Positions 9,927 through 44,695 of a stretch of DNA of 64,000 nucleotides are shown here, one piece after another. The notes under the pieces were generated by a model. The model searched no databases. It was not told where the DNA came from and worked only from the letters and a program-made list of their open reading frames with translations. Position 1 is the first letter of the stretch, and every line of letters begins with the position of its first letter. Origin of the DNA: an uncultured Methanosarcinales archaeon (GTDB lineage: Archaea > Nanobdellota > Nanobdellia > Woesearchaeales > GW2011-AR4); assembly GCA_964650285.1 (NCBI GenBank), contig CAZYSP010000003.1, positions 6,364 to 70,363 of the forward strand, in the 5' to 3' direction. Position numbers and translations under genes: made by a program.

Positions 9927-11336
9927 ATGACCACAACAGCTGACTTAAAGAAATTTGGTTTTGAGAAAGAAGAGATAGCAGAGCAGACAAGACAACAGTA
10001 TATTAAAACAGGCTTTCCAAAACCAGCAAGAAGATACAGATTACATTATGAGGGCTATAATATTTCTATTGAAGAACCGTATTTCTACATTCTGCATTAT
10101 TTAAGATATTTTTCTGGTTTTCCGCATATAGACAAGATATCAGATGTGTTTGCTGCTACTGAAAACAGCGCTTTTTTTGGAGCATCTCAGCAAAGACTAG
10201 GTTTGCAGCAAGACAAAGTAAGCCAGTTTTTAGCAACAATAGGGAAAATGGTTCGAGAGTTATTTCAGTTAGTAAGAGAATTAAGAATTCTGGATGAAAG
10301 GTTAAGCTATTATTATGACAGTTTTACCACAAGCAAAAGTTCTGAAAGTGCTGAAATTACATTAAAAGGCATATGGGTGGATTTAGTTGAGCAAGGAGCA
10401 AAAAATCCTGCATCTGTTTATGGTATGGCAAGAGAAGTGCAATTTACAACTTTGCCGGATTTGTTTTTCTCAACACACCCTAAAAAACAGGAGGATGTTG
10501 ATGAGGTTGTTGAAAGAGAAAGAGGAGCATTTAACCGCAAAGTAAGGGAAGTTCTTAAAAGAAAATTAAGGACATTCTTAGCTTGGAAAGAGCATACTTT
10601 TGAAGAGATGAAAAACAGGAGAAAATTCACATTAAAATTTTTAAGGCAGCATTATGAAGTCATAAGAATGTATATACACTGGGTAAGACCTTACTTAAGG
10701 AACATACAACGCTTGCAATTAGACCAGAGCAAGACAGAAACTCCGGATTTACTTGTTGCTTTTGAAAGCTCAATGATAGAAGTGGAACTACTAGCAAGAA
10801 TACCTGGAAAAGTAAGCCAGTGTTTGCTTATACATTATTTATTCAGAACAAGGCCTGAAATGTCTTATGTGCAGGAATATCAAAGAGGGCCATTACATCT
10901 TGGCAGGGTTGAAATAGATTTTAGGATGTATGCATGGACTGTTGAAGAAATTGAAAATTATAAAAGGATGAGGGAGCAAGAAGATTTCCAGCTTTTAGGA
11001 ATCATAGACACTTCTGTTAAAGCTGCAATGGAATCTTTAGGAGATGAATTAATGAGATACTTAAAAGAGGCTGGTGAAGAGTTTGGGCCAAAAACTGAGA
11101 AAAAAATTGAGAAAAAGCGTTCTTCATTTTTAAGTCCCTATACCTCAATTTTTAAGGGTTTTTCTGAACTTTTCAGTGCCCAAAAAACAAAAAAGCAGGC
11201 AAGGCAAAAAAAACCAAGCAAGACAGATGTTATGAAGTTGAGTTTGGCAAGAACAGAGGCTGAGAAAAAGGTAAAGGCAACTGCGTGGACAATTTATCAT
11301 CACTTCAAAAAACACCACCACATGCTAAACTGGTAA
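9927..11336 (+). CDS. hypothetical protein (469 aa), compositionally atypical
   Basis: Long ORF. GC and amino-acid usage (R/Q/E/F/Y-rich) differ from the K/I/N-rich neighbours. No recognised motif. Confidence 0.5.
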   Translation: MTTTADLKKFGFEKEEIAEQTRQQYIKTGFPKPARRYRLHYEGYNISIEEPYFYILHYLRYFSGFPHIDKISDVFAATENSAFFGASQQRLGLQQDKVSQFLATIGKMVRELFQLVRELRILDERLSYYYDSFTTSKSSESAEITLKGIWVDLVEQGAKNPASVYGMAREVQFTTLPDLFFSTHPKKQEDVDEVVERERGAFNRKVREVLKRKLRTFLAWKEHTFEEMKNRRKFTLKFLRQHYEVIRMYIHWVRPYLRNIQRLQLDQSKTETPDLLVAFESSMIEVELLARIPGKVSQCLLIHYLFRTRPEMSYVQEYQRGPLHLGRVEIDFRMYAWTVEEIENYKRMREQEDFQLLGIIDTSVKAAMESLGDELMRYLKEAGEEFGPKTEKKIEKKRSSFLSPYTSIFKGFSELFSAQKTKKQARQKKPSKTDVMKLSLARTEAEKKVKATAWTIYHHFKKHHHMLNW

Positions 11337-11640: not shown

Positions 11641-13821
11641 ATGGACTTTGGAGACCTTAATTATGGACATCATCCAATGGTTGATTATTTCAATGCCATG
11701 GAACCGGAATCTTATGGCATGCAAGTAGCTAATAAACCTGATGTAAATTTAAGCGTGCAAGACATTGGAATGAGCGTTCCTATGGGAATTTCTGCTGCAA
11801 ATGTTGCTGGAATATATTCAAAAATAAGAATGGGTGCAGGTAAATTAGAAATACAATTCCCAGGCTATAGGATAGGGAACAGAAACCAGCAGACACCTGA
11901 GATGTTAGGAGAGGACCAAAGACAGGCTTTAAGGGAAATGCAACTTGCTAATGAAGTAAGGTTTAACACACATGCCAGCTTTGGCCTTATGGGAATGATG
12001 GGCAGAGATGAGAGGGGAAATTTTTCAATTCACGGAGCATACCAGGACCTACTTGAATTGAAAAGATCAATTGATTTCCAGGCAGATATGGGTAGTGGTT
12101 CTGTTGTAATGCACTCTGGAGAATTTGAAAGACCAATGACAGATATGCACTTGGATGATGAAACACATCATTTAAACTTAGCCAGGGATGAGTCAGGAAG
12201 ATTAATGGTCAGAATGGGGCATACCCAGGAATTTGATGCAAAGTTTGACTTAATGGATGCAAGGACAAGCCAGAAAATGGAAACTGTGCAGAAAGATAGA
12301 TTAGTTTCATATCCTGATTGGTTAAAGTCAAAAGAAGATTACTCAGGAATTGATGTAGATGGAAAATCTACTACAATAAAAAAAGGTGATTTTATTGATT
12401 ATCAAGGCAGAAAAATATTGGACCCTTATGATGCTGTAAAAGGAAGAGTTCCAGAATATGATAAAGAAAGAGGAAGATTTTCTGTTAAACTAAAACATTT
12501 TGATTATTTTAAGAAAGAAGCAGAAAAATATAATGAATATCAAAGACAAAAACTAGGCAGAGAGCCAAATTATTATGAAAAAGTATATCCAGAAGAAATG
12601 TTCTTGCGAGCAACCTTAGAGACACAGGAAGGCCATGCAAGAGGTTGGGCACTGCAATATGGCCTAGAGACTCAAAAGCATATTGACCGGTTAAATAAAA
12701 TCGATAAAGCTACGGAATTCTACAAAAAATTAGATGCCTCAATACCGCCAGAAGAAAAATGGAAAATTATGAAAGAAGAGCGTGCTGAGTTCATTTATCC
12801 AGAGTTAATACCGTTAGACACAAAACATCCTTTAGAATTGCTACGGAAAATGAGAAGGACGGAAGAAAGAGGTCTTGAATTTGCAAGGCAATCTTCAGGA
12901 GCCCAAGAGCAGCAGGCAGTTGACACTAAGGAAACAAAAGAAAACCTAATAACACCAATAAAGAGGCTTGAGCAGCATGGTGTCAGGATGTATGCTGAAG
13001 CTGGACTACATGCTATGAATAAAACAAAGGATCCTAATAACCCGGTTGTCGTTGCTATTGAAAACCTGTTTCCGGAAAGGTTTGGAGGCCATTTAGAAGA
13101 ACTAAAATGGACTATCAAAAAATCCAGGGATAGAATGGTTAAGCTGCTTACAGAGCCTAAGATACAGCTAGGTGTTAGCAGAATGCCTACTGAGATGGAT
13201 GAAAAAAAGTTATCTGAAGCTACGATGCCTGGAAAAAAAGGAATGTTGCAGGAAAATCCTTTTTATATGGGGATAGGCAAAGAGGAAGCAGAAAAAATTG
13301 CTGAAAGGCACATTAAAGCTACCTTAGACACAGGACATTTGAATATGTGGAAGAAGTTCTGGCAGGACGACCCAAAACTTAACCGTGAGCAGAATGACGG
13401 AAAATTTAAACAATGGTACTTAAATCAGGTTGAGAGCCTGGCAAAAGAGAATATGGTTGGAAATGTGCATCTTGCTGATAATTTTGGATACCAGGACGAC
13501 CATCTAAGCCCTGGCCAGGGAAATGCGCCAATAAAAGAAGCTGTTGCAATACTAAAAAAACACGGCTATGACCGCGCATTAACTGTCGAGCCAGGTGCAG
13601 ATGCTGCAACTGATTTAAGCGATTTCCATGGATTAATGAAAACCTGGAAACTATTTGGCAGCCCTATGTATGGTGTGGGAATGGGAAGCCCGCAAGTACC
13701 TCAAAACTGGACAGATGTTCAATACTCATATTTCGGCCAGAACAGACCTCCTTATTTTGTATTCGGGCCTTATGCGCCAAGCAATGACTGGACATTATGG
13801 TCAGCAGTACCTATGGAGTAA
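11641..13821 (+). CDS. endonuclease IV (Nfo)/xylose-isomerase-like TIM-barrel protein with ~300 aa of insertions
   Basis: Nfo-like blocks: EVRFNTHASFG (~HAPYLINLG), VVMHSG (~NFHPGS), AIENLFPE (~VIENTAGQ), ATLDTGH (~CIDTCHAF), VHLADNFGYQDDHLSPGQGN (~[24 protein letters not shown]). GC is about 40-45%, above neighbours. Confidence 0.5.
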   Translation: MDFGDLNYGHHPMVDYFNAMEPESYGMQVANKPDVNLSVQDIGMSVPMGISAANVAGIYSKIRMGAGKLEIQFPGYRIGNRNQQTPEMLGEDQRQALREMQLANEVRFNTHASFGLMGMMGRDERGNFSIHGAYQDLLELKRSIDFQADMGSGSVVMHSGEFERPMTDMHLDDETHHLNLARDESGRLMVRMGHTQEFDAKFDLMDARTSQKMETVQKDRLVSYPDWLKSKEDYSGIDVDGKSTTIKKGDFIDYQGRKILDPYDAVKGRVPEYDKERGRFSVKLKHFDYFKKEAEKYNEYQRQKLGREPNYYEKVYPEEMFLRATLETQEGHARGWALQYGLETQKHIDRLNKIDKATEFYKKLDASIPPEEKWKIMKEERAEFIYPELIPLDTKHPLELLRKMRRTEERGLEFARQSSGAQEQQAVDTKETKENLITPIKRLEQHGVRMYAEAGLHAMNKTKDPNNPVVVAIENLFPERFGGHLEELKWTIKKSRDRMVKLLTEPKIQLGVSRMPTEMDEKKLSEATMPGKKGMLQENPFYMGIGKEEAEKIAERHIKATLDTGHLNMWKKFWQDDPKLNREQNDGKFKQWYLNQVESLAKENMVGNVHLADNFGYQDDHLSPGQGNAPIKEAVAILKKHGYDRALTVEPGADAATDLSDFHGLMKTWKLFGSPMYGVGMGSPQVPQNWTDVQYSYFGQNRPPYFVFGPYAPSNDWTLWSAVPME

Positions 13822-40899: not shown

Positions 40900-42615
40900 T
40901 CATTTCTCATGTCTTGGATGTTCATGACCTGCCTCTTTTCTCTTTCTTAGGTGTTCAATATGAGCAATCTTTTCTTTCAGAAATTTATTAAGATTTAATC
41001 CGTGCTCTTCAATCATTGTGGATACATGGTGCCCGCCTAAAAAATGAGGCATAAGCACATAAGTTGCGCCTGCATCATACAACTTCATTGCTTCATCAAT
41101 CTGATGAGAAACAACTGTTATAATTGCTTTTTTATTGGATTCCCTGACCTTGTTAATCAATAAAAGATTTGTATCTAAGTTATGTATTGTTGAGGCAACC
41201 ATTTTTATTTTTGAAAAGTTTAACTCATTTAGCAATTCAGAATCGCTTGCATCGCCGTACTTGCAATCAAAGCCCCCTTTTGCTAATTTTGTTATTGTTT
41301 CCGGATTATAATCTACAACAAGAAACTTCTTTTTTATTTTTTTAAAAGACTCTAGGATATCATAGCCAATTCTGTCATACCCAAAAAGAATAATATCGTA
41401 AGTTCCATCTTTATGGTGTTTATGTTCATCGACTTTTTCACCTTTTCTTTCAAATATTCCCAGATACCTTGATAAATGGGGGTATATCTTATTTGCATAA
41501 AGTATAAGGTAAGTAGAGCCAGCAATAGTTATTAAACCAATAATAGTCACGAGAGACAAGATATCAGTTGTCAGATGCCCTACTTTAACGCCTAATGCAA
41601 CAAGAATTAAAGAAAATTCACTTATCTGGGCTACGGTTAATCCTGCTAAAAAACTATTTCTTTTAGTATAGCCAAGCAAACCCATTAATACCATTACTAT
41701 TAGCGGATTCCCGATAAGTATAAATATTGAAAATATTATGATAGGAATTATATACTGGCTTATATTTGTAAATATCATTTGGGAACCCAGTAATATGAAA
41801 AACAAAATAATAAAAAAATCACGTAATGGTTTCATTTTAGAACCAATCTCATAGTGGTATGGGGATAAAGACAGAGTAATACCTGCTAATAGCGCTCCTG
41901 CTTCTATTGAAAAATTTAAATAATAAAAAAGAGAAGCTATTGCAAAACACCAGCCAATTGAAAATAATAATAAAAATTCTTGGGACTTAGCAATAGCCTT
42001 AGTTAGTTGCGGAAAAATATAAACACTTATTAGAAATAATAAAAGTAATACGCCCACACCTTTTAAAACAGTTTCAAGTGCTAAAGTAGTAAAATTTATT
42101 CCGGCTGGGATTGATGAGATGACCATCAAGATAACTATTACAATTAAATCCTGAATAATTAAAAAACCGATAGCAATCCTTCCATACAGGGTTTCTAGGT
42201 CTCCCTTATCTGATAAAAGTTTCATGATTATTATAGTGCTGCTGAATGTCAGAGCAATAGCAATATATATTGAAACTATCGTAGAAAAACCTAATAATTG
42301 ACCTATGAAAAACCCAACTAAAGAAGTGAATATAACCTGACCAACTCCAGTAACTAAAGAAACCTTGCCAACATCCTTTATTATTTTTGGATTCAAGTTT
42401 AATCCAACCATAAATAAAAGCAACACTATGCCTATCTGTGCAAAAGTTGCAATAGCATCTGTAGATTTAACTATATTGAGAAAATAAGGGCTTACTATAA
42501 TACCAGTTAGAATATAACCTATGATCAGTGGCTGTCTTAACAATCGCACTATTCCTGCAACAACAACTGCAATAAGGATAACAATGCTTAATTCAATAAA
42601 TATGCTTATAGCCAT
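40900..42615 (-). CDS. CPA2 monovalent cation:proton antiporter with C-terminal RCK/TrkA-N domain (KefB/KefC-like)
   Basis: About 12 transmembrane helices, then a Rossmann-like ILFGYDRIGYDI...VV domain. Confidence 0.8.
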   Translation of the reverse strand: MAISIFIELSIVILIAVVVAGIVRLLRQPLIIGYILTGIIVSPYFLNIVKSTDAIATFAQIGIVLLLFMVGLNLNPKIIKDVGKVSLVTGVGQVIFTSLVGFFIGQLLGFSTIVSIYIAIALTFSSTIIIMKLLSDKGDLETLYGRIAIGFLIIQDLIVIVILMVISSIPAGINFTTLALETVLKGVGVLLLLFLISVYIFPQLTKAIAKSQEFLLLFSIGWCFAIASLFYYLNFSIEAGALLAGITLSLSPYHYEIGSKMKPLRDFFIILFFILLGSQMIFTNISQYIIPIIIFSIFILIGNPLIVMVLMGLLGYTKRNSFLAGLTVAQISEFSLILVALGVKVGHLTTDILSLVTIIGLITIAGSTYLILYANKIYPHLSRYLGIFERKGEKVDEHKHHKDGTYDIILFGYDRIGYDILESFKKIKKKFLVVDYNPETITKLAKGGFDCKYGDASDSELLNELNFSKIKMVASTIHNLDTNLLLINKVRESNKKAIITVVSHQIDEAMKLYDAGATYVLMPHFLGGHHVSTMIEEHGLNLNKFLKEKIAHIEHLRKRKEAGHEHPRHEK

Positions 42616-42696
42616 CTTTTACCTCTTTGTTAATATATCCCAATGCATAATATTTAATTTTTTCGGAAGGGTTTTTCATATTTATGGCACCTTTTA

Positions 42697-42843
42697 TTAC
42701 AATATTTCTATAGTTCCGGTTTCTTTTGGTTCTTTTTTGTTATTTTCAATTAATTTCAGCTCTATTATGTCGTTTTGCTTTAGTTGTTCAATTAATTCGT
42801 CTTTTGTTATTCTCATCAATAATGCCAAATCCTCTAGTTTCAT
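42697..42843 (-). CDS. 48-aa hypothetical protein overlapping the AbrB-like ORF by ATGA
   Basis: MKLEDLALLMRITKDELIEQLKQNDIIELKLIENNKKEPKETGTIEIL. Its start overlaps the upstream stop in ATGA (translational coupling). Confidence 0.3.
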   Translation of the reverse strand: MKLEDLALLMRITKDELIEQLKQNDIIELKLIENNKKEPKETGTIEIL

Positions 42844-42992
42844 TTATTCACCTTCTTTATTTGGAGTATAAAGCCATCTTTGTGCTTCTTGAATTCAACT
42901 TCTGTACCTTTTTCCAGGCCTTCATACTCTGCAAGAATCTTAGGAATAGTTAATACAAGCTGTCCTGATGCAAGTTTTTGCACTTTTACCAT
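42840..42992 (-). CDS. SpoVT/AbrB (MazE/VapB-like) swapped-hairpin DNA-binding protein, 50 aa (not in ORF track)
   Basis: MVKVQKLASGQLVLTIPKILAEYEGLEKGTEVEFKKHKDGFILQIKKVNK matches the AbrB/MazE pattern. Confidence 0.5.
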   Translation of the reverse strand: MVKVQKLASGQLVLTIPKILAEYEGLEKGTEVEFKKHKDGFILQIKKVNK

Positions 42993-43175
42993 TTGAGACT
43001 ATATAATAGTATTTTTAATAGTTTTTTTATTGTTTTTTATATTATTTAGAATAATAGTATTTAAATGTTTTGGTTATAAATGAAAATAATGGTGTATGTT
43101 AAGAGTATTTTGTTAGATAGGTATTGTCCTAAAAAGAATTATTTTCCTGAACAAAATATCAAAAAATAGAATAAT

Positions 43176-43976
43176 TTATTTACTCAAAACACTTTTAATC
43201 TCCCAAACCATATCAGAAGCAAGGTAAGTAAATCCTTTTTTCTTTTTCAGCAGTATATCTCCAATTAGTCCATTGAAATAATCTGCATTTACTGCAGATT
43301 GTAATAAAGATAAACCCTGTCCTAAGAATCCAACACATAAGCCAGCTAAAACATCACCAGTTCCGGCTTTTGACATGCCAGGATTGCCTGTTTTGTTATA
43401 ATATGTTTTAGAAGTTGATATTATCTGATCAATAGGGCCTTTTAATATTAAGATGTTATTTTTTAGATGTTTTCTAAAATTGTTTTTGTTTAATTTTGAA
43501 TTTTTCAATAAAATGTTAAATTCTCCATGATGGGGCGTAAGTATTGAATTTTTAACGTCCTGTAGCCTTATATGCTTTAATGCGTCCGCATCAATAACCA
43601 ATGGTTTTCTTGTTTCTTTAACATATTTTTTTACAAAAGATTTAGCATGTATTCCTATTCCGTTGCCAATCAAAATAGAATCAAAGTTTTTTTCGAATTT
43701 TAAAACGTCTTTTGCATGAGAAACGCAAAAATCATCCCCTTTGTATTTTTTAACAACTAAATCTGCTGCTAAACAATTAATAGCCCATCCTACTTTTTCA
43801 GGTGCAGCAACAGTAACCCAATCTACTCCAGACCTTAAAGCAGCTAAACCAGCAAGAGCAACTGCCCCAACATAGTCTTTAGAGCCTCCAATAACTAAAA
43901 CGCGGCCATTGTCTCCCTTTTTGCTGCCCTTTTTTCTTTTTGGCAGCTTAATGTCCTTTTTTGATATGTAGTGCAT
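43176..43976 (-). CDS. nnrD: ADP-dependent NAD(P)H-hydrate dehydratase (YjeF C-terminal domain)
   Basis: GGSKDYVGA...GTGDVLAG carbohydrate-kinase-fold motifs. Confidence 0.75.
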   Translation of the reverse strand: MHYISKKDIKLPKRKKGSKKGDNGRVLVIGGSKDYVGAVALAGLAALRSGVDWVTVAAPEKVGWAINCLAADLVVKKYKGDDFCVSHAKDVLKFEKNFDSILIGNGIGIHAKSFVKKYVKETRKPLVIDADALKHIRLQDVKNSILTPHHGEFNILLKNSKLNKNNFRKHLKNNILILKGPIDQIISTSKTYYNKTGNPGMSKAGTGDVLAGLCVGFLGQGLSLLQSAVNADYFNGLIGDILLKKKKGFTYLASDMVWEIKSVLSK

Positions 43977-44095
43977 TTTATTATTAATTATTTTTTTGAT
44001 TTTTATTATTTTTTGTTGGTTTTTTTATTATTGAAATTATTATTTTTATAAATAAATTTTCATTGTATTATTTTTTATTAAACTTTTTTATTGTT

Positions 44096-44695
44096 TTATT
44101 TCTTAATCCCAATATCCGCAACAATAGTTTTACCTTTATAACTTTCTAAACCCTTTTTTATGTCGTGCATTGTTATTATTAAATCCGGATCAAAAAATAC
44201 ATTTGCCTTTTCCCCGGTATCAGGATTTATTCCTGAAGGAACATCAACAGAAACTTTATAGGCGTCTGATTTTCCGATATTTTTTATTAGTGTAACTAAA
44301 GGATCTTTTATTTCTCCTTCTATGCCTGTGCCAAAAACAGCATCTATAATAACATCATAATCAGAAAAATCAACTGCTTCCATTGATAGCATTTGAAGTT
44401 TTTCATTATTTTCTATTTTTTTGAAATTCGCTAATGCTTCTTTTGTTAATTTTGTTTCATCACCTACAAACAAAACATCAACTTCTGCATCATTGCATAG
44501 GTATCTTGCAGCAACAAAACCATCACCGCCATTATTTCCATGATATGCAACAATAAGAATTCTTTTATCCTTTAAATCAAATTTTTCTTTTAAAACATTG
44601 TATATAGCTTTGCCTGCATTTTCCATTAAGACAATTTTTGGAATGTCGCAATTGTCTTCCAAAGACCTCATTTCCTGGGTTGTTATCATTCTCAT
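44096..44695 (-). CDS. nnrE: NAD(P)H-hydrate epimerase (YjeF N-terminal domain)
   Basis: GNNGGDG motif. Encoded separately, directly upstream of the dehydratase. Confidence 0.75.
   Translation of the reverse strand: MRMITTQEMRSLEDNCDIPKIVLMENAGKAIYNVLKEKFDLKDKRILIVAYHGNNGGDGFVAARYLCNDAEVDVLFVGDETKLTKEALANFKKIENNEKLQMLSMEAVDFSDYDVIIDAVFGTGIEGEIKDPLVTLIKNIGKSDAYKVSVDVPSGINPDTGEKANVFFDPDLIITMHDIKKGLESYKGKTIVADIGIKK

What the first reader, a model, noticed from the sequence alone, without database searches (positions are those of the whole stretch)
42697..42992. Uncalled overlapping mini-operon: AbrB/MazE-fold protein and a 48-aa protein upstream of the Kef antiporter
On the minus strand, a 50-aa ORF (42992-42840) has the swapped-hairpin SpoVT/AbrB signature (VLTIPKILAEYEGLEKGTEVEF...DGFILQ) of MazE/VapB antitoxins and AbrB regulators. 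Its stop overlaps, in ATGA, the start of a 48-aa ORF (42843-42697, MKLEDLALLMRITKDELIEQLKQND...). Both are below the 60-aa cutoff of the ORF track. They sit ~80 bp upstream of the CPA2/RCK antiporter gene on the same strand. A 48-aa partner is small for a classical toxin. This may be a miniature toxin-antitoxin-like or regulatory pair controlling the transporter.
Basis: partly seen in the sequence, partly recalled or inferred. Interest (0 to 1): 0.5.

Follow-up and report, generated by a model that had tools for sequence, protein, structure and literature searches.

The report
AbrB-type autoregulator operon with antiporter
Two tiny overlapping genes ahead of a cation/proton antiporter gene in an uncultivated DPANN archaeon are real, conserved genes that most likely form a self-regulating DNA-binding switch for that operon, not a toxin-antitoxin pair.

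Summary
Both ORFs exist as described: 50 aa at 42992-42840 and 48 aa at 42843-42697, minus strand, with an ATGA overlap, 81 nt upstream of a CPA2/TrkA_N antiporter gene. Public gene callers already call both.

- **ORF1** is an AbrB/MazE swapped-hairpin domain (Pfam PF04014, just above the gathering score). It is very conserved in about 80 Woesearchaeota/Nanoarchaeota species (median 74% identity; neighbouring genes about 45%).
- **ORF2** belongs to a narrow, unannotated family of about 49 aa. It is acidic, its N-terminus looks like a helix-turn-helix, and it has no toxin features. It follows ORF1 in 54 of 81 loci.
- **Antiporter link.** A CPA2 gene follows ORF1 or ORF2 in 60 of 81 loci.
- **New observation.** The ORF1 upstream region carries a conserved array of 8-bp quasi-palindromic boxes, TA[C/A]TA[T/G]TA. 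They are about 250-fold enriched there. 75 of 82 box-to-box distances are multiples of 12 bp. One box abuts the BRE/TATA promoter and two lie just before the ATG. The boxes are also present where ORF2 is absent.

Best reading: ORF1 is a sequence-specific autorepressor of the ORF1-(ORF2)-antiporter operon, working like MraZ or MazE on their own promoters. ORF2 is probably a modulating partner. A toxin-antitoxin function is not supported.

The parts
42840..42992 (-). ORF1: 50-aa AbrB/MazE swapped-hairpin DNA-binding protein; proposed autorepressor
   Evidence: ORF. PF04014 at 25.4 bits, above the 24.7 cut-off. AF2 model has beta-beta-alpha-beta-beta topology, pLDDT 77. Top Foldseek hits are MazE, AbrB and SpoVT. 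89 homologues at 74-92% identity.
42697..42843 (-). ORF2: 48-aa acidic protein; helix-turn-helix-like N-terminus and a conserved C-terminal half (DVIELxLxE...I.I); proposed partner or modulator of ORF1
   Evidence: ORF. Found next to ORF1 in 54 loci. The family has 339+ members and 181 representatives, almost all 40-52 aa. AF2 predicts helices at 3-9 and 14-23. Only sub-threshold hits, to UPF0175, IF2_N, HTH_17, Cox and excisionase.
40900..42615 (-). CPA2 cation/proton antiporter with a C-terminal TrkA_N (RCK) domain; third gene of the proposed operon
   Evidence: Pfam Na_H_Exchanger 8.8e-51 and TrkA_N 1e-20. A homologue follows ORF1 or ORF2 in 60 of 81 loci.
43058..43075 (-). Core promoter: BRE-like AACCAAAACA (43075-43066) plus TATA box TTTAAATA (43065-43058)
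   Evidence: Sequence. Other genes in the window carry the same 'aaac(c/a)TTTAAATA' element 25-35 nt before their ATG. It is conserved upstream of ORF1 across loci. Its function is inferred, not mapped.
43052..43059 (-). Box 1: TACTATTA, overlapping the 3' end of the TATA box
   Evidence: This is the distal box conserved in most loci.
43016..43023 (-). Box at +36 from box 1: AACTATTA (one mismatch)
43004..43011 (-). Box at +48 from box 1: TACTATTA; ends 11 nt before the ORF1 ATG
43004..43059 (-). Whole array in 12-bp register between the TATA box and the ATG; weaker AT-only units lie between the strong boxes
   Evidence: 75 of 82 box-to-box distances across loci are multiples of 12. Consensus of the spacing classes.
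42849..42852 (-). GGTG Shine-Dalgarno-like motif for ORF2, inside the 3' end of ORF1
   Evidence: A GGTG lies about 8-12 nt before the ORF2 start in nearly all loci.
42621..42625 (-). GAGGT Shine-Dalgarno-like motif for the antiporter gene, within the 81-nt spacer
   Evidence: The spacer has no T-run and no terminator-like site.
43161..43166 (-). T6 run after the upstream NAD(P)HX dehydratase gene; possible archaeal terminator separating the transcription units
   Evidence: Sequence. Inference only.

Best explanation
ORF1 is a small AbrB/MazE-fold protein. I propose that it acts as a homodimer and binds a phased array of 8-bp quasi-palindromic boxes, TA[C/A]TA[T/G]TA, in its own promoter and leader. 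One box abuts the TATA box, and one or two lie just before the ATG. In this way it would negatively autoregulate a transcript that carries ORF1, ORF2 (translationally coupled through the ATGA overlap) and the CPA2/RCK antiporter. Expression of a potentially harmful K+(Na+)/H+ exchanger would thereby be held at a set level.

ORF2 is an acidic 48-aa protein with a helix-turn-helix-like N-terminus. It is most likely a stoichiometric partner that modulates ORF1, as co-repressor or anti-repressor.

**Shown:** the fold assignment, the conservation, the synteny, the overlap, and the existence, enrichment and 12-bp phasing of the boxes.

**Inferred:** that ORF1 is the protein that binds the boxes, that binding represses, that the three genes are co-transcribed, and the role of ORF2.
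For: 1. ORF1 has the DNA-binding fold. PF04014 scores above the gathering cut-off and matches 23 of 26 relatives. The AF2 model is beta-beta-alpha-beta-beta. Foldseek ranks MazE (TMq 0.73, probability 0.99), AbrB, SpoVT and VapB first.
2. The box array is conserved. Exact AATA[C/G]TATT occurs at 8.8 per kb in the 130 nt upstream of ORF1, against 0.026 per kb in the other 505 kb of the same loci. The 8-mers TACTATTA, TAATAGTA and TACTAGTA occur 133 times upstream against 28 times in the background. 65 of 74 loci have at least one box and 57 have at least two.
3. The boxes are phased. 75 of 82 box-to-box distances are multiples of 12 (12, 36, 48, 60, 72), across several total array lengths.
4. 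The boxes occur in both orientations and as a perfect palindrome. That fits a two-fold symmetric dimer on double-stranded DNA and argues against an RNA-level signal.
5. Box 1 abuts a canonical BRE/TATA of the same type as other genes in the window. The last box ends -1 to +7 nt from the ATG in most loci.
6. The boxes persist in loci without ORF2 (for example L008, L016, L022, L043, L045, L064). ORF1 is therefore the constant candidate binder.
7. The five ORF1 variants with Tyr8 all carry only the palindromic TACTAGTA box.
8. Operon signals are present. The -4 overlap (NTGA) is seen in 27 of 54 loci. A GGTG lies before ORF2. ORF1 and the antiporter gene overlap or abut in the 23 loci without ORF2. 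The 81-nt spacer has no terminator-like site.
9. ORF1 is basic (median +5) and ORF2 acidic (median -3).
10. There is precedent. MraZ, another AbrB-superfamily protein and the first gene of its operon, binds 3-4 repeated boxes at its own promoter cooperatively (PMC12957436). MazE represses its own promoter through its N-terminal domain (PMC4333400).
Against: - Nothing here shows binding, repression or co-transcription.
- No transcription start site is mapped. If transcription starts about 25 nt after the TATA box, the proximal boxes lie in a roughly 45-nt leader, and an RNA-level role is not formally excluded.
- The loci were found through ORF1 peptide patterns. ORF1's higher conservation is therefore partly an ascertainment effect, and antiporter genes without ORF1 were not sampled.
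- 15 loci keep ORF1 (14 of them with ORF2) but have no antiporter gene within at least 1 kb downstream. The antiporter is thus not an obligatory target.
- Nine loci lack exact boxes.
- In the window the antiporter has its own 81-nt spacer with an AT-rich TATA-like stretch, so it may have a separate promoter.
- The Tyr8/TACTAGTA co-variation is probably a single clade, that is, one evolutionary event.
Confidence: 0.6

Rival explanations
1. Miniature type II toxin-antitoxin module: ORF1 is a MazE/VapB-like antitoxin and ORF2 a small toxin.
For: ORF1 has an antitoxin-type fold. The two small genes overlap by 4 nt. Some source annotations call ORF1 homologues 'antitoxin component of MazEF'. One JGI record calls an ORF2 homologue 'antidote protein VapI'.
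Against: - ORF2 matches no toxin or defence family in Pfam, NCBIfam, PHROGs or PADLOC.
- ORF2 is acidic, soluble and helix-turn-helix-like, with no hydrophobic segment.
- ORF1 is only the 47-aa DNA-binding core with no toxin-binding tail.
- 23 of 81 loci have ORF1 without ORF2.
- The locus is syntenic across about 80 species rather than mobile or patchy.
- ORF1 is far more conserved than antitoxins usually are (the comparison with typical antitoxins rests on general knowledge).
Confidence: 0.03
2. ORF1 and/or ORF2 are accessory protein subunits of the antiporter (functionally like KefF/KefG or KhtS/KhtT). They would act on the RCK domain after translation rather than on DNA.
For: Gene linkage to CPA2 genes of two different clades is tight, 60 of 81 loci. 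Stop/start overlaps are frequent. In L052 and L066 ORF2 lies directly after the antiporter gene. The C-terminal half of ORF2 is conserved but does not fold on its own in AF2, which suggests folding upon binding.
Against: - ORF1-ORF2 persist in 14 loci with no adjacent antiporter gene.
- ORF1 has a DNA-binding fold.
- The box array at the ORF1 promoter is unexplained by a purely post-translational role.
- No fusions of ORF2 to the antiporter or to RCK domains were found among 181 representatives.
- A dual role, with ORF2 linking the transporter's state to ORF1, is not excluded.
Confidence: 0.12
3. ORF1 is a general nucleoid-associated (Sso7c4-like) chromatin protein whose position ahead of the antiporter gene is only conserved gene order. 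The boxes would be high-affinity nucleation or autoregulatory sites of a global DNA binder.
For: It consists of an AbrB domain only, is about 50 aa and basic, like Sso7c4 (PMC3159460, PMC5222340). Sso7c4 (5itj) is among the Foldseek hits. Conservation is extreme. ORF1 heads a longer conserved gene string that includes a YhbY-like gene and 470-aa and 700-aa proteins.
Against: - The clustered, phased, sequence-specific boxes occur only at its own promoter in 64 kb of window plus 505 kb of flanks. That points to specific rather than generic binding.
- There is no significant sequence match to Sso7c4 in the PDB search.
- Abundance cannot be assessed here.
Confidence: 0.1
4. The conserved boxes are the target of a different transcription factor, or act in the mRNA leader. 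ORF1/ORF2 would then regulate something elsewhere.
For: No binding data exist. The proximal boxes probably lie in a transcribed leader that ends at the ATG.
Against: - The boxes and ORF1 are conserved together in about 65 of 74 species.
- The boxes are palindromic and occur in either orientation, which argues against an RNA signal.
- There is no Rfam match.
- Autoregulation is the rule for AbrB-fold regulators such as MazE and MraZ (PMC4333400, PMC12957436).
Confidence: 0.1

Closest known systems
MraZ (AbrB-superfamily regulator, first gene of the bacterial dcw operon)
   Same: Swapped-hairpin/AbrB-type DNA-binding motif. It is the first gene of a conserved operon. It binds cooperatively to 3-4 equally spaced repeated boxes at its own promoter, with the transcription start site inside the box region (PMC12957436).
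   Different: MraZ is about 150 aa with two UPF0040 repeats and forms octamers to dodecamers. Its boxes are GTG(G/T) direct repeats with a 10-bp period. It is bacterial. Here the protein is a single 47-aa domain, the boxes are TA[C/A]TA[T/G]TA with a 12-bp period, the promoter is archaeal BRE/TATA, and the cargo is an antiporter.
MazE / VapB / PemI AbrB-fold antitoxins of type II toxin-antitoxin systems
   Same: Same Pfam family (PF04014), and MazE is the best structural match. Small overlapping genes. Autorepression through palindromic operators (PMC4333400).
   Different: There is no toxin partner and no toxin-binding C-terminal tail. The locus is conserved and syntenic across species rather than patchy or mobile. 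The downstream partner is helix-turn-helix-like and acidic.
Sso7c4 and C68/C56 (small AbrB-only DNA-binding proteins of Sulfolobus and its plasmids)
   Same: Archaeal, about 50-60 aa, consisting of the swapped-hairpin dimer domain only, and basic (PMC3159460). They appear among the Foldseek hits.
   Different: Sso7c4 is described as a chromatin-type, largely non-specific binder. Here a specific phased operator array and an operon context are seen. No significant sequence similarity was found.
Bacillus AbrB / Abh / SpoVT N-terminal domains
   Same: Same fold; transcription regulators; strongly conserved N-domain.
   Different: The Bacillus proteins carry C-terminal oligomerisation or GAF domains and act globally. 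ORF1 has none. Any oligomerisation would have to come from ORF2 or from DNA-templated cooperativity.
Excisionase/MerR-type minimal (winged) HTH proteins (Xis, Cox, BldC) and UPF0175, compared with ORF2
   Same: Similar size. Two-helix HTH-like N-terminus followed by predicted strand-forming segments. Weak matches to HTH_17, Phage_Cox, excisionase and UPF0175. HTH units dominate the non-significant Foldseek list.
   Different: All matches are below threshold. The putative recognition helix is acidic, so DNA binding by ORF2 is doubtful.
KefF/KefG and KhtS/KhtT ancillary proteins of CPA2 antiporters
   Same: Small genes co-transcribed with a CPA2 K+/H+ antiporter that modulate it (PMC10224563, PMC11150392 for Kef).
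   Different: By general knowledge, not tested here, those are flavodoxin-like or RCK proteins that act on the transporter. ORF1 has a DNA-binding fold and ORF2 matches none of them.

Membership tests
SpoVT/AbrB (MazE_antitoxin, PF04014) superfamily: ORF1 | Sequence match to the family profile above the curated threshold | tested here: met
   25.4 bits against a cut-off of 24.7, E=1.3e-5. 23 of 26 relatives match, best 3.1e-7. The margin for the window protein itself is narrow.
SpoVT/AbrB (MazE_antitoxin, PF04014) superfamily: ORF1 | beta-beta-alpha-beta-beta half-barrel topology of the swapped-hairpin monomer | tested here: met
   AF2 predicts E3-6, E12-15, H18-24, E32-37, E40-45, pLDDT 77. 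Foldseek top hits are MazE (TMq 0.73, probability 0.99), AbrB, SpoVT and VapB, although E-values are above 0.1 because the domain is short.
SpoVT/AbrB (MazE_antitoxin, PF04014) superfamily: ORF1 | Homodimer forming the interleaved barrel; DNA binding | not testable with these tools
The palindromic boxes are indirect support.
Type II toxin-antitoxin module (MazEF / VapBC / PemIK type) | Adjacent partner is a recognisable toxin (MazF/PemK, PIN, Doc, RelE...) | tested here: not met
   ORF2 has no hit in Pfam, NCBIfam, PHROGs or PADLOC toxin or defence models. Its only weak hits are HTH/antitoxin-like.
Type II toxin-antitoxin module (MazEF / VapBC / PemIK type) | Antitoxin has a toxin-binding extension beyond the DNA-binding domain | tested here: not met
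   ORF1 homologues are 47-55 aa: the domain plus a short basic tail.
Type II toxin-antitoxin module (MazEF / VapBC / PemIK type) | Both genes always together; patchy, mobile, often multicopy distribution | tested here: not met
   23 of 81 loci lack ORF2. Synteny with the CPA2 gene and other genes is conserved. There is one locus per assembly among the 80 species.
Type II toxin-antitoxin module (MazEF / VapBC / PemIK type) | Growth arrest by the toxin, rescued by the antitoxin | not testable with these tools
   Needs an expression experiment.
MraZ (UPF0040, two tandem AbrB-like repeats) | About 150 aa with two MraZ repeats; at the head of the dcw cluster | tested here: not met
   ORF1 is a single 47-aa domain. 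It shows no MraZ-family hit at E up to 10, and the operon content is different. It is a functional analogue only.
Sso7c4-like archaeal chromatin proteins | Sequence relationship to Sso7c4; abundant non-specific DNA binder | tested here: inconclusive
   The PDB profile search found no significant hit (best an AbrB-family protein, 7d2n, E=0.82). The structure match to 5itj has TMq 0.56, E=3. Abundance is not testable.
Excisionase/MerR-like HTH (HTH_17, TIGR01764) or UPF0175: ORF2 | Profile match above threshold | tested here: inconclusive
   The window ORF2 has no hit. Among 57 relatives the matches are UPF0175 14 (best 0.0019), IF2_N 7, HTH_17 6 and excisionase 5 (best 0.012), all sub-threshold. 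AF2 gives two helices with HTH-like geometry, but Foldseek E-values are 4 or higher.
Kef ancillary subunits (KefF/KefG) and KhtS/KhtT | Flavodoxin-like NAD(P)H oxidoreductase fold (KefF/G) or RCK domain (KhtT) | tested here: not met
   Neither ORF shows such domains. KhtS itself could not be compared because no sequence was available.

The most novel reading that the evidence does not exclude
ORF1, ORF2 and the 12-bp-phased box array may form a lineage-wide feedback circuit specific to Woesearchaeota. In it the acidic 48-aa ORF2 would shuttle between the antiporter's RCK domain and the ORF1 repressor filament, so that transporter or ion status is read out directly as operon transcription. This would be a partner-switching mechanism built from two roughly 50-residue proteins, with no described counterpart for CPA2 transporters or in DPANN archaea.
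Probability: 0.1. Interest if true: 0.7.

Novelty: new variant of a known kind. Interest (0 to 1): 0.5.

Why it matters
Almost nothing is known experimentally about gene regulation in DPANN archaea, which are uncultivated and have very few transcription factors. This locus offers a complete, testable regulator-operator pair:

- a 50-aa protein that is easy to synthesise;
- a defined 8-bp box with a strict 12-bp register, conserved over about 65 species;
- a physiologically meaningful cargo, a K+(Na+)/H+ antiporter with an RCK domain.

It also defines an unannotated 48-aa protein family (ORF2) confined to this lineage. For annotation, it shows that 'MazE antitoxin' labels on these genes are misleading. 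The kind of mechanism (an AbrB-fold autorepressor on repeated boxes) is well known, so this is not a new principle.

Tried and rejected
- **Toxin-antitoxin reading.** Rejected after profile searches of ORF2 in four libraries and after the synteny analysis.
- **Informative fusions of ORF2.** An exhaustive profile search of 1.84 billion representatives gave 181 hits. The few long ones are upstream over-extensions in the ORF1 -1 frame or chimeric contigs. Nothing was learned about function.
- **PDB sequence searches.** Profiles of both ORFs gave no significant hits.
- **Foldseek with the ORF2 model.** Only non-significant HTH fragments, E of 4 or higher.
- **Metagenome-wide scan for further targets.** Only 8 are followed by ORF1. 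The others are unrelated AT-rich organisms or viruses, for example L160. The scan says nothing about a regulon.
- **Lys6-to-Gln co-variation with altered boxes.** Not consistent: L074 and L077 have Gln6 with canonical boxes. Dropped.
- **Programmed -1 frameshift fusing ORF1 and ORF2 in the CTG-start loci.** Rejected, because the ORF2 frame has an in-frame TGA three codons upstream in those loci.
- **Structured RNA.** No Rfam match in 42400-43400.
- **Bacterial sigma-70 and intrinsic-terminator scan.** Not meaningful for an archaeon.
- **Literature.** Searches found no description of this operon or of AbrB-CPA2 linkage in archaea.
Full report
**Observation.**
On the minus strand, ORF1 (42992-42840, 50 aa) and ORF2 (42843-42697, 48 aa) are present exactly as described, and they share the four bases ATGA. 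ORF1 matches Pfam PF04014 (MazE_antitoxin, the SpoVT/AbrB domain) at 25.4 bits, just above the curated cut-off of 24.7 (E=1.3e-5). NCBIfam gives only sub-threshold MazE/PemI, doc-partner and AbrB hits. ORF2 matches nothing in Pfam or NCBIfam.

The next gene on the same strand (42615-40900) has Na_H_Exchanger and TrkA_N domains, so it is a CPA2 antiporter with an RCK domain. It starts 81 nt after ORF2. Upstream lie separate NAD(P)HX dehydratase and epimerase genes. Both small genes are called in public assemblies of the same organism, a marine metagenome lineage (JGI, ENA and Tara contigs). They are therefore unannotated rather than uncalled.

**Are the ORFs real genes?**
ORF1 has 89 listed homologues of 47-58 aa at 74-92% identity. 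Those that carry an organism name are from Woesearchaeota or Nanoarchaeota metagenome bins. Eighteen columns are invariant, and the consensus is MVKVQKLPSGQLVITIPKxLAEYEGLxKGxExEFKKHKDGFILxIKK.

A scan of one genome per species returned 80 loci. Some records are labelled 'uncultured Methanosarcinales', and one copy of ORF2 is labelled 'Flavobacteriales'. Given the gene content, these look like labelling or binning errors.

In 54 of the 81 loci (80 plus the window), an ORF2 homologue directly follows ORF1. A profile of these recovers 339+ proteins of about 49 aa. An exhaustive search of 1.84 billion cluster representatives finds only 181 at E of 1e-3 or better, almost all 40-52 aa. ORF2 is thus a narrow, lineage-restricted family with no annotation.

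Across loci, synonymous sites are saturated (pS about 0.8). pN/pS is 0.19 for ORF1 and 0.42 for ORF2, and the alternative forward frames contain stops in essentially all loci. Both are protein-coding genes under purifying selection.

Median pairwise identity is 74% for ORF1, 45% for ORF2 and 45-52% for the antiporter. Because the loci were retrieved through conserved ORF1 peptides, the ORF1 figure is inflated by ascertainment.

**Gene context.**
- Of the 81 loci, 37 have ORF1, ORF2 and the antiporter. In L052 and L066 the order is ORF1, antiporter, ORF2.
- 23 have ORF1 followed directly by the antiporter gene, usually with overlapping stop and start.
- 14 have ORF1 and ORF2 but no antiporter gene within at least 1 kb downstream.
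- One locus (L059) is followed by a HerA-like gene, and the remaining six loci run into contig ends.

The antiporters fall into two clades that are about 40% identical to each other, and both sit behind ORF1. In L041 and L044 the spacer still carries a remnant of the other clade's N-terminus. This suggests replacement of the antiporter gene in place while ORF1-ORF2 were kept.

In many loci the string continues with a YhbY/CRM-domain gene, a highly conserved protein of about 470 aa without Pfam domains, and a protein of about 700 aa with a TIM-barrel C-terminus. In the window these last two lie about 30 kb away. So ORF1 is strongly, but not obligatorily, linked to the antiporter.

**Translation signals.**
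- ORF2 starts overlap the ORF1 stop by 4 nt (NTGA) in 27 of 54 loci. The others overlap or abut within a few nucleotides.
- A GGTG motif lies about 8-12 nt upstream, inside the ORF1 tail.
- Start codons are ATG in 33 loci, GTG in 8 and TTG in 7.
- In six species the start is CTG, with no canonical alternative and an in-frame TGA three codons upstream.
- The antiporter gene in the window has its own GAGGT motif. The 81-nt spacer has no T-run or terminator-like site.

**The key new observation: a conserved operator-like array.**
Aligning the 100 nt upstream of ORF1 from 75 loci shows a conserved distal element, 'AAAACCGCAAC.TTTA(A/T)ATACTATTA', and a proximal 'ACTATTAAAAATACTATT'.
- The exact 9-mer AATA[C/G]TATT occurs at 8.8 per kb in the 130 nt upstream of ORF1, against 0.026 per kb in the remaining 505 kb of the same loci.
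- The core is best described as the 8-mer TA[C/A]TA[T/G]TA. Upstream there are 97 copies of TACTATTA, 23 of its reverse complement TAATAGTA and 13 of the perfect palindrome TACTAGTA, against 28 in the whole background.
- 75 of 82 distances between boxes are exact multiples of 12 bp (12, 36, 48, 60 or 72). The total span varies between species in 12-bp steps.
- 65 of 74 loci have at least one exact box, and 57 have at least two.
- In the window the boxes are at 43059-43052, 43023-43016 (one mismatch) and 43011-43004, that is, 36 and 48 bp apart.
- ATACTATT is not a general feature of the window: 6 copies against 4.35 expected, two of them here. No other place in the window has two strong boxes together.
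- The distal box abuts a BRE/TATA element of the same 'aaac(c/a)TTTAAATA' type as other genes in the window, where it sits 25-35 nt before the ATG. For ORF1 it sits about 70-85 nt before the ATG. The array therefore probably spans the transcription start and a short leader. The last box ends -1 to +7 nt from the ATG in most loci.
- The boxes are present whether or not ORF2 is present.
- The five ORF1 variants with Tyr instead of Pro at position 8 (all without ORF2) carry only the palindromic TACTAGTA version. This is probably one clade, so it is only suggestive.
- There is no Rfam match in the region.

**Structure.**
With the family alignment, AF2 predicts beta-beta-alpha-beta-beta for ORF1 (pLDDT 77). 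Foldseek against the PDB ranks MazE (1ub4_C, TMq 0.73, probability 0.99), AbrB, SpoVT, C68 of pSSVx, Sso7c4 (5itj) and VapB at the top. E-values stay above 0.1 because the domain is so short.

ORF2 is predicted to have two helices (residues 3-9 and 14-23, pLDDT 81-85). Its C-terminal half is conserved but does not fold in the monomer model. Family members give only sub-threshold hits, to UPF0175, IF2_N, HTH_17, Phage_Cox, the excisionase family and other HTH models. Foldseek hits are non-significant HTH fragments.

ORF1 is basic (median net charge +5). ORF2 is acidic (median -3), and this includes its second helix. It has no hydrophobic segment.

**Interpretation.**
The simplest account has three steps.
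1. ORF1 is a dimeric AbrB-fold DNA-binding protein that recognises the quasi-palindromic boxes.
2. Several dimers occupy the 12-bp-phased array between the TATA box and the start codon.
3. Occupancy limits transcription of ORF1, ORF2 and, by read-through, the antiporter. This is negative autoregulation.

The account parallels MraZ, an AbrB-superfamily protein encoded by the first gene of its operon. MraZ binds 3-4 equally spaced boxes at its own promoter cooperatively (PMC12957436). It also parallels MazE, which represses its own promoter (PMC4333400).

ORF2 is translationally coupled to ORF1, of opposite charge, and has a C-terminal half that probably folds on a partner. It is most plausibly a modulator of ORF1, acting as co-repressor or anti-repressor. 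A link to the antiporter's RCK domain is possible but has no direct support.

Binding, the direction of regulation, co-transcription and the ORF2 role are all inferences. The fold, the conservation, the synteny and the box array are shown.

**Rivals.**
- A toxin-antitoxin pair is very unlikely, for the reasons given above.
- A purely post-translational accessory role at the antiporter does not explain the DNA-binding fold or the box array. It also conflicts with the 14 loci that keep the pair without an adjacent antiporter gene.
- A general chromatin role of the Sso7c4 type (PMC3159460, PMC5222340) is not excluded. It fits less well with boxes clustered only at the protein's own promoter.
- The boxes could be bound by another factor. 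Only an experiment can settle that.

**Novelty and score.**
The type of mechanism is well known. New here are the particular family pair, the defined operator code with its 12-bp register conserved across a DPANN order, the link to CPA2 antiporters, and the unannotated ORF2 family. Literature searches found no description of any of this. I rate it a new variant of a known kind, of moderate interest (0.5).

Noticed in passing
L025, L027, L039, L050, L056, L058 (ORF1/ORF2 junctions, e.g. L025:4159): In six species ORF2 has no ATG, GTG or TTG start. The conserved N-terminus begins at a CTG that overlaps the ORF1 stop (CTGA), with an in-frame TGA three codons upstream and a GGTG about 8 nt before it. 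This suggests CUG initiation or termination-reinitiation.
   Followed up: partly
window 9927-11336 (+) and 11641-13821 (+): A 469-aa protein with no Pfam domain is 77% identical to its homologue in L007, where the antiporter is only about 42% identical to the window's. A 726-aa protein with a xylose-isomerase-like TIM barrel at its C-terminus is 62% identical to L028's. In most other species this pair follows the ORF1 operon directly; here it lies about 30 kb away. It is a very conserved lineage-specific pair of unknown function.
   Followed up: partly
L041:281-517 and L044:4300-4677 (spacer between ORF2 and the antiporter gene): The AT-rich spacer contains a short remnant ORF (MENIFFEAKKK / MANIFFEIGTVF...) that resembles the N-terminus of the other antiporter clade. 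The CPA2 gene behind ORF1-ORF2 appears to have been replaced in place by a paralogue about 40% identical.
   Followed up: partly
L052:6011-6268, L066:6007-6264 and about 20 other loci, directly after the antiporter gene: An 85-aa CRS1/YhbY (CRM-domain, RNA-binding) gene follows the antiporter gene in many loci. In L019 and L021 it lies between ORF2 and the antiporter gene. It is absent from this position in the window, where a metallophosphoesterase gene (40859-40224) follows.
   Followed up: partly
window 43066-43080 and the corresponding positions in L001-L080: A conserved 'AAAACCGCAAC' (window: ATAACCAAAACA) lies immediately upstream of the TATA box of the ORF1 promoter. It is longer than the 'aaac' BRE-like element of other genes in the window and could be a further protein-binding site.
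   Followed up: no
L031, L036, L037, L057, L060 (ORF1 residue 8 and upstream boxes): ORF1 variants with Tyr8 instead of Pro8 carry only the perfectly palindromic TACTAGTA box. This may be protein-DNA co-variation, but it probably reflects one clade.
   Followed up: partly
record titles of L010-L079 (many) and of P0001: Many MAGs that carry this Woesearchaeota-type locus are labelled 'uncultured Methanosarcinales archaeon', and one copy of the window's ORF2 is labelled 'Flavobacteriales bacterium'. These are probably taxonomic mislabels or binning errors in public records.
   Followed up: no
window 43176-44695 (-); L079:156-980: The NAD(P)HX repair enzyme is split into separate YjeF_N (epimerase) and Carb_kinase (dehydratase) genes just upstream of ORF1. 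In L079 the dehydratase gene lies between ORF1 and the antiporter gene, so it may belong to the same conserved neighbourhood.
   Followed up: no
L160:4780-4860: The same 18-mer ACTATTAAAAATACTATT, plus a nearby ATAGTATTA, occurs upstream of a structural-looking gene on a Tara contig with very large ORFs, possibly a virus. It was judged a chance AT-rich match.
   Followed up: partly
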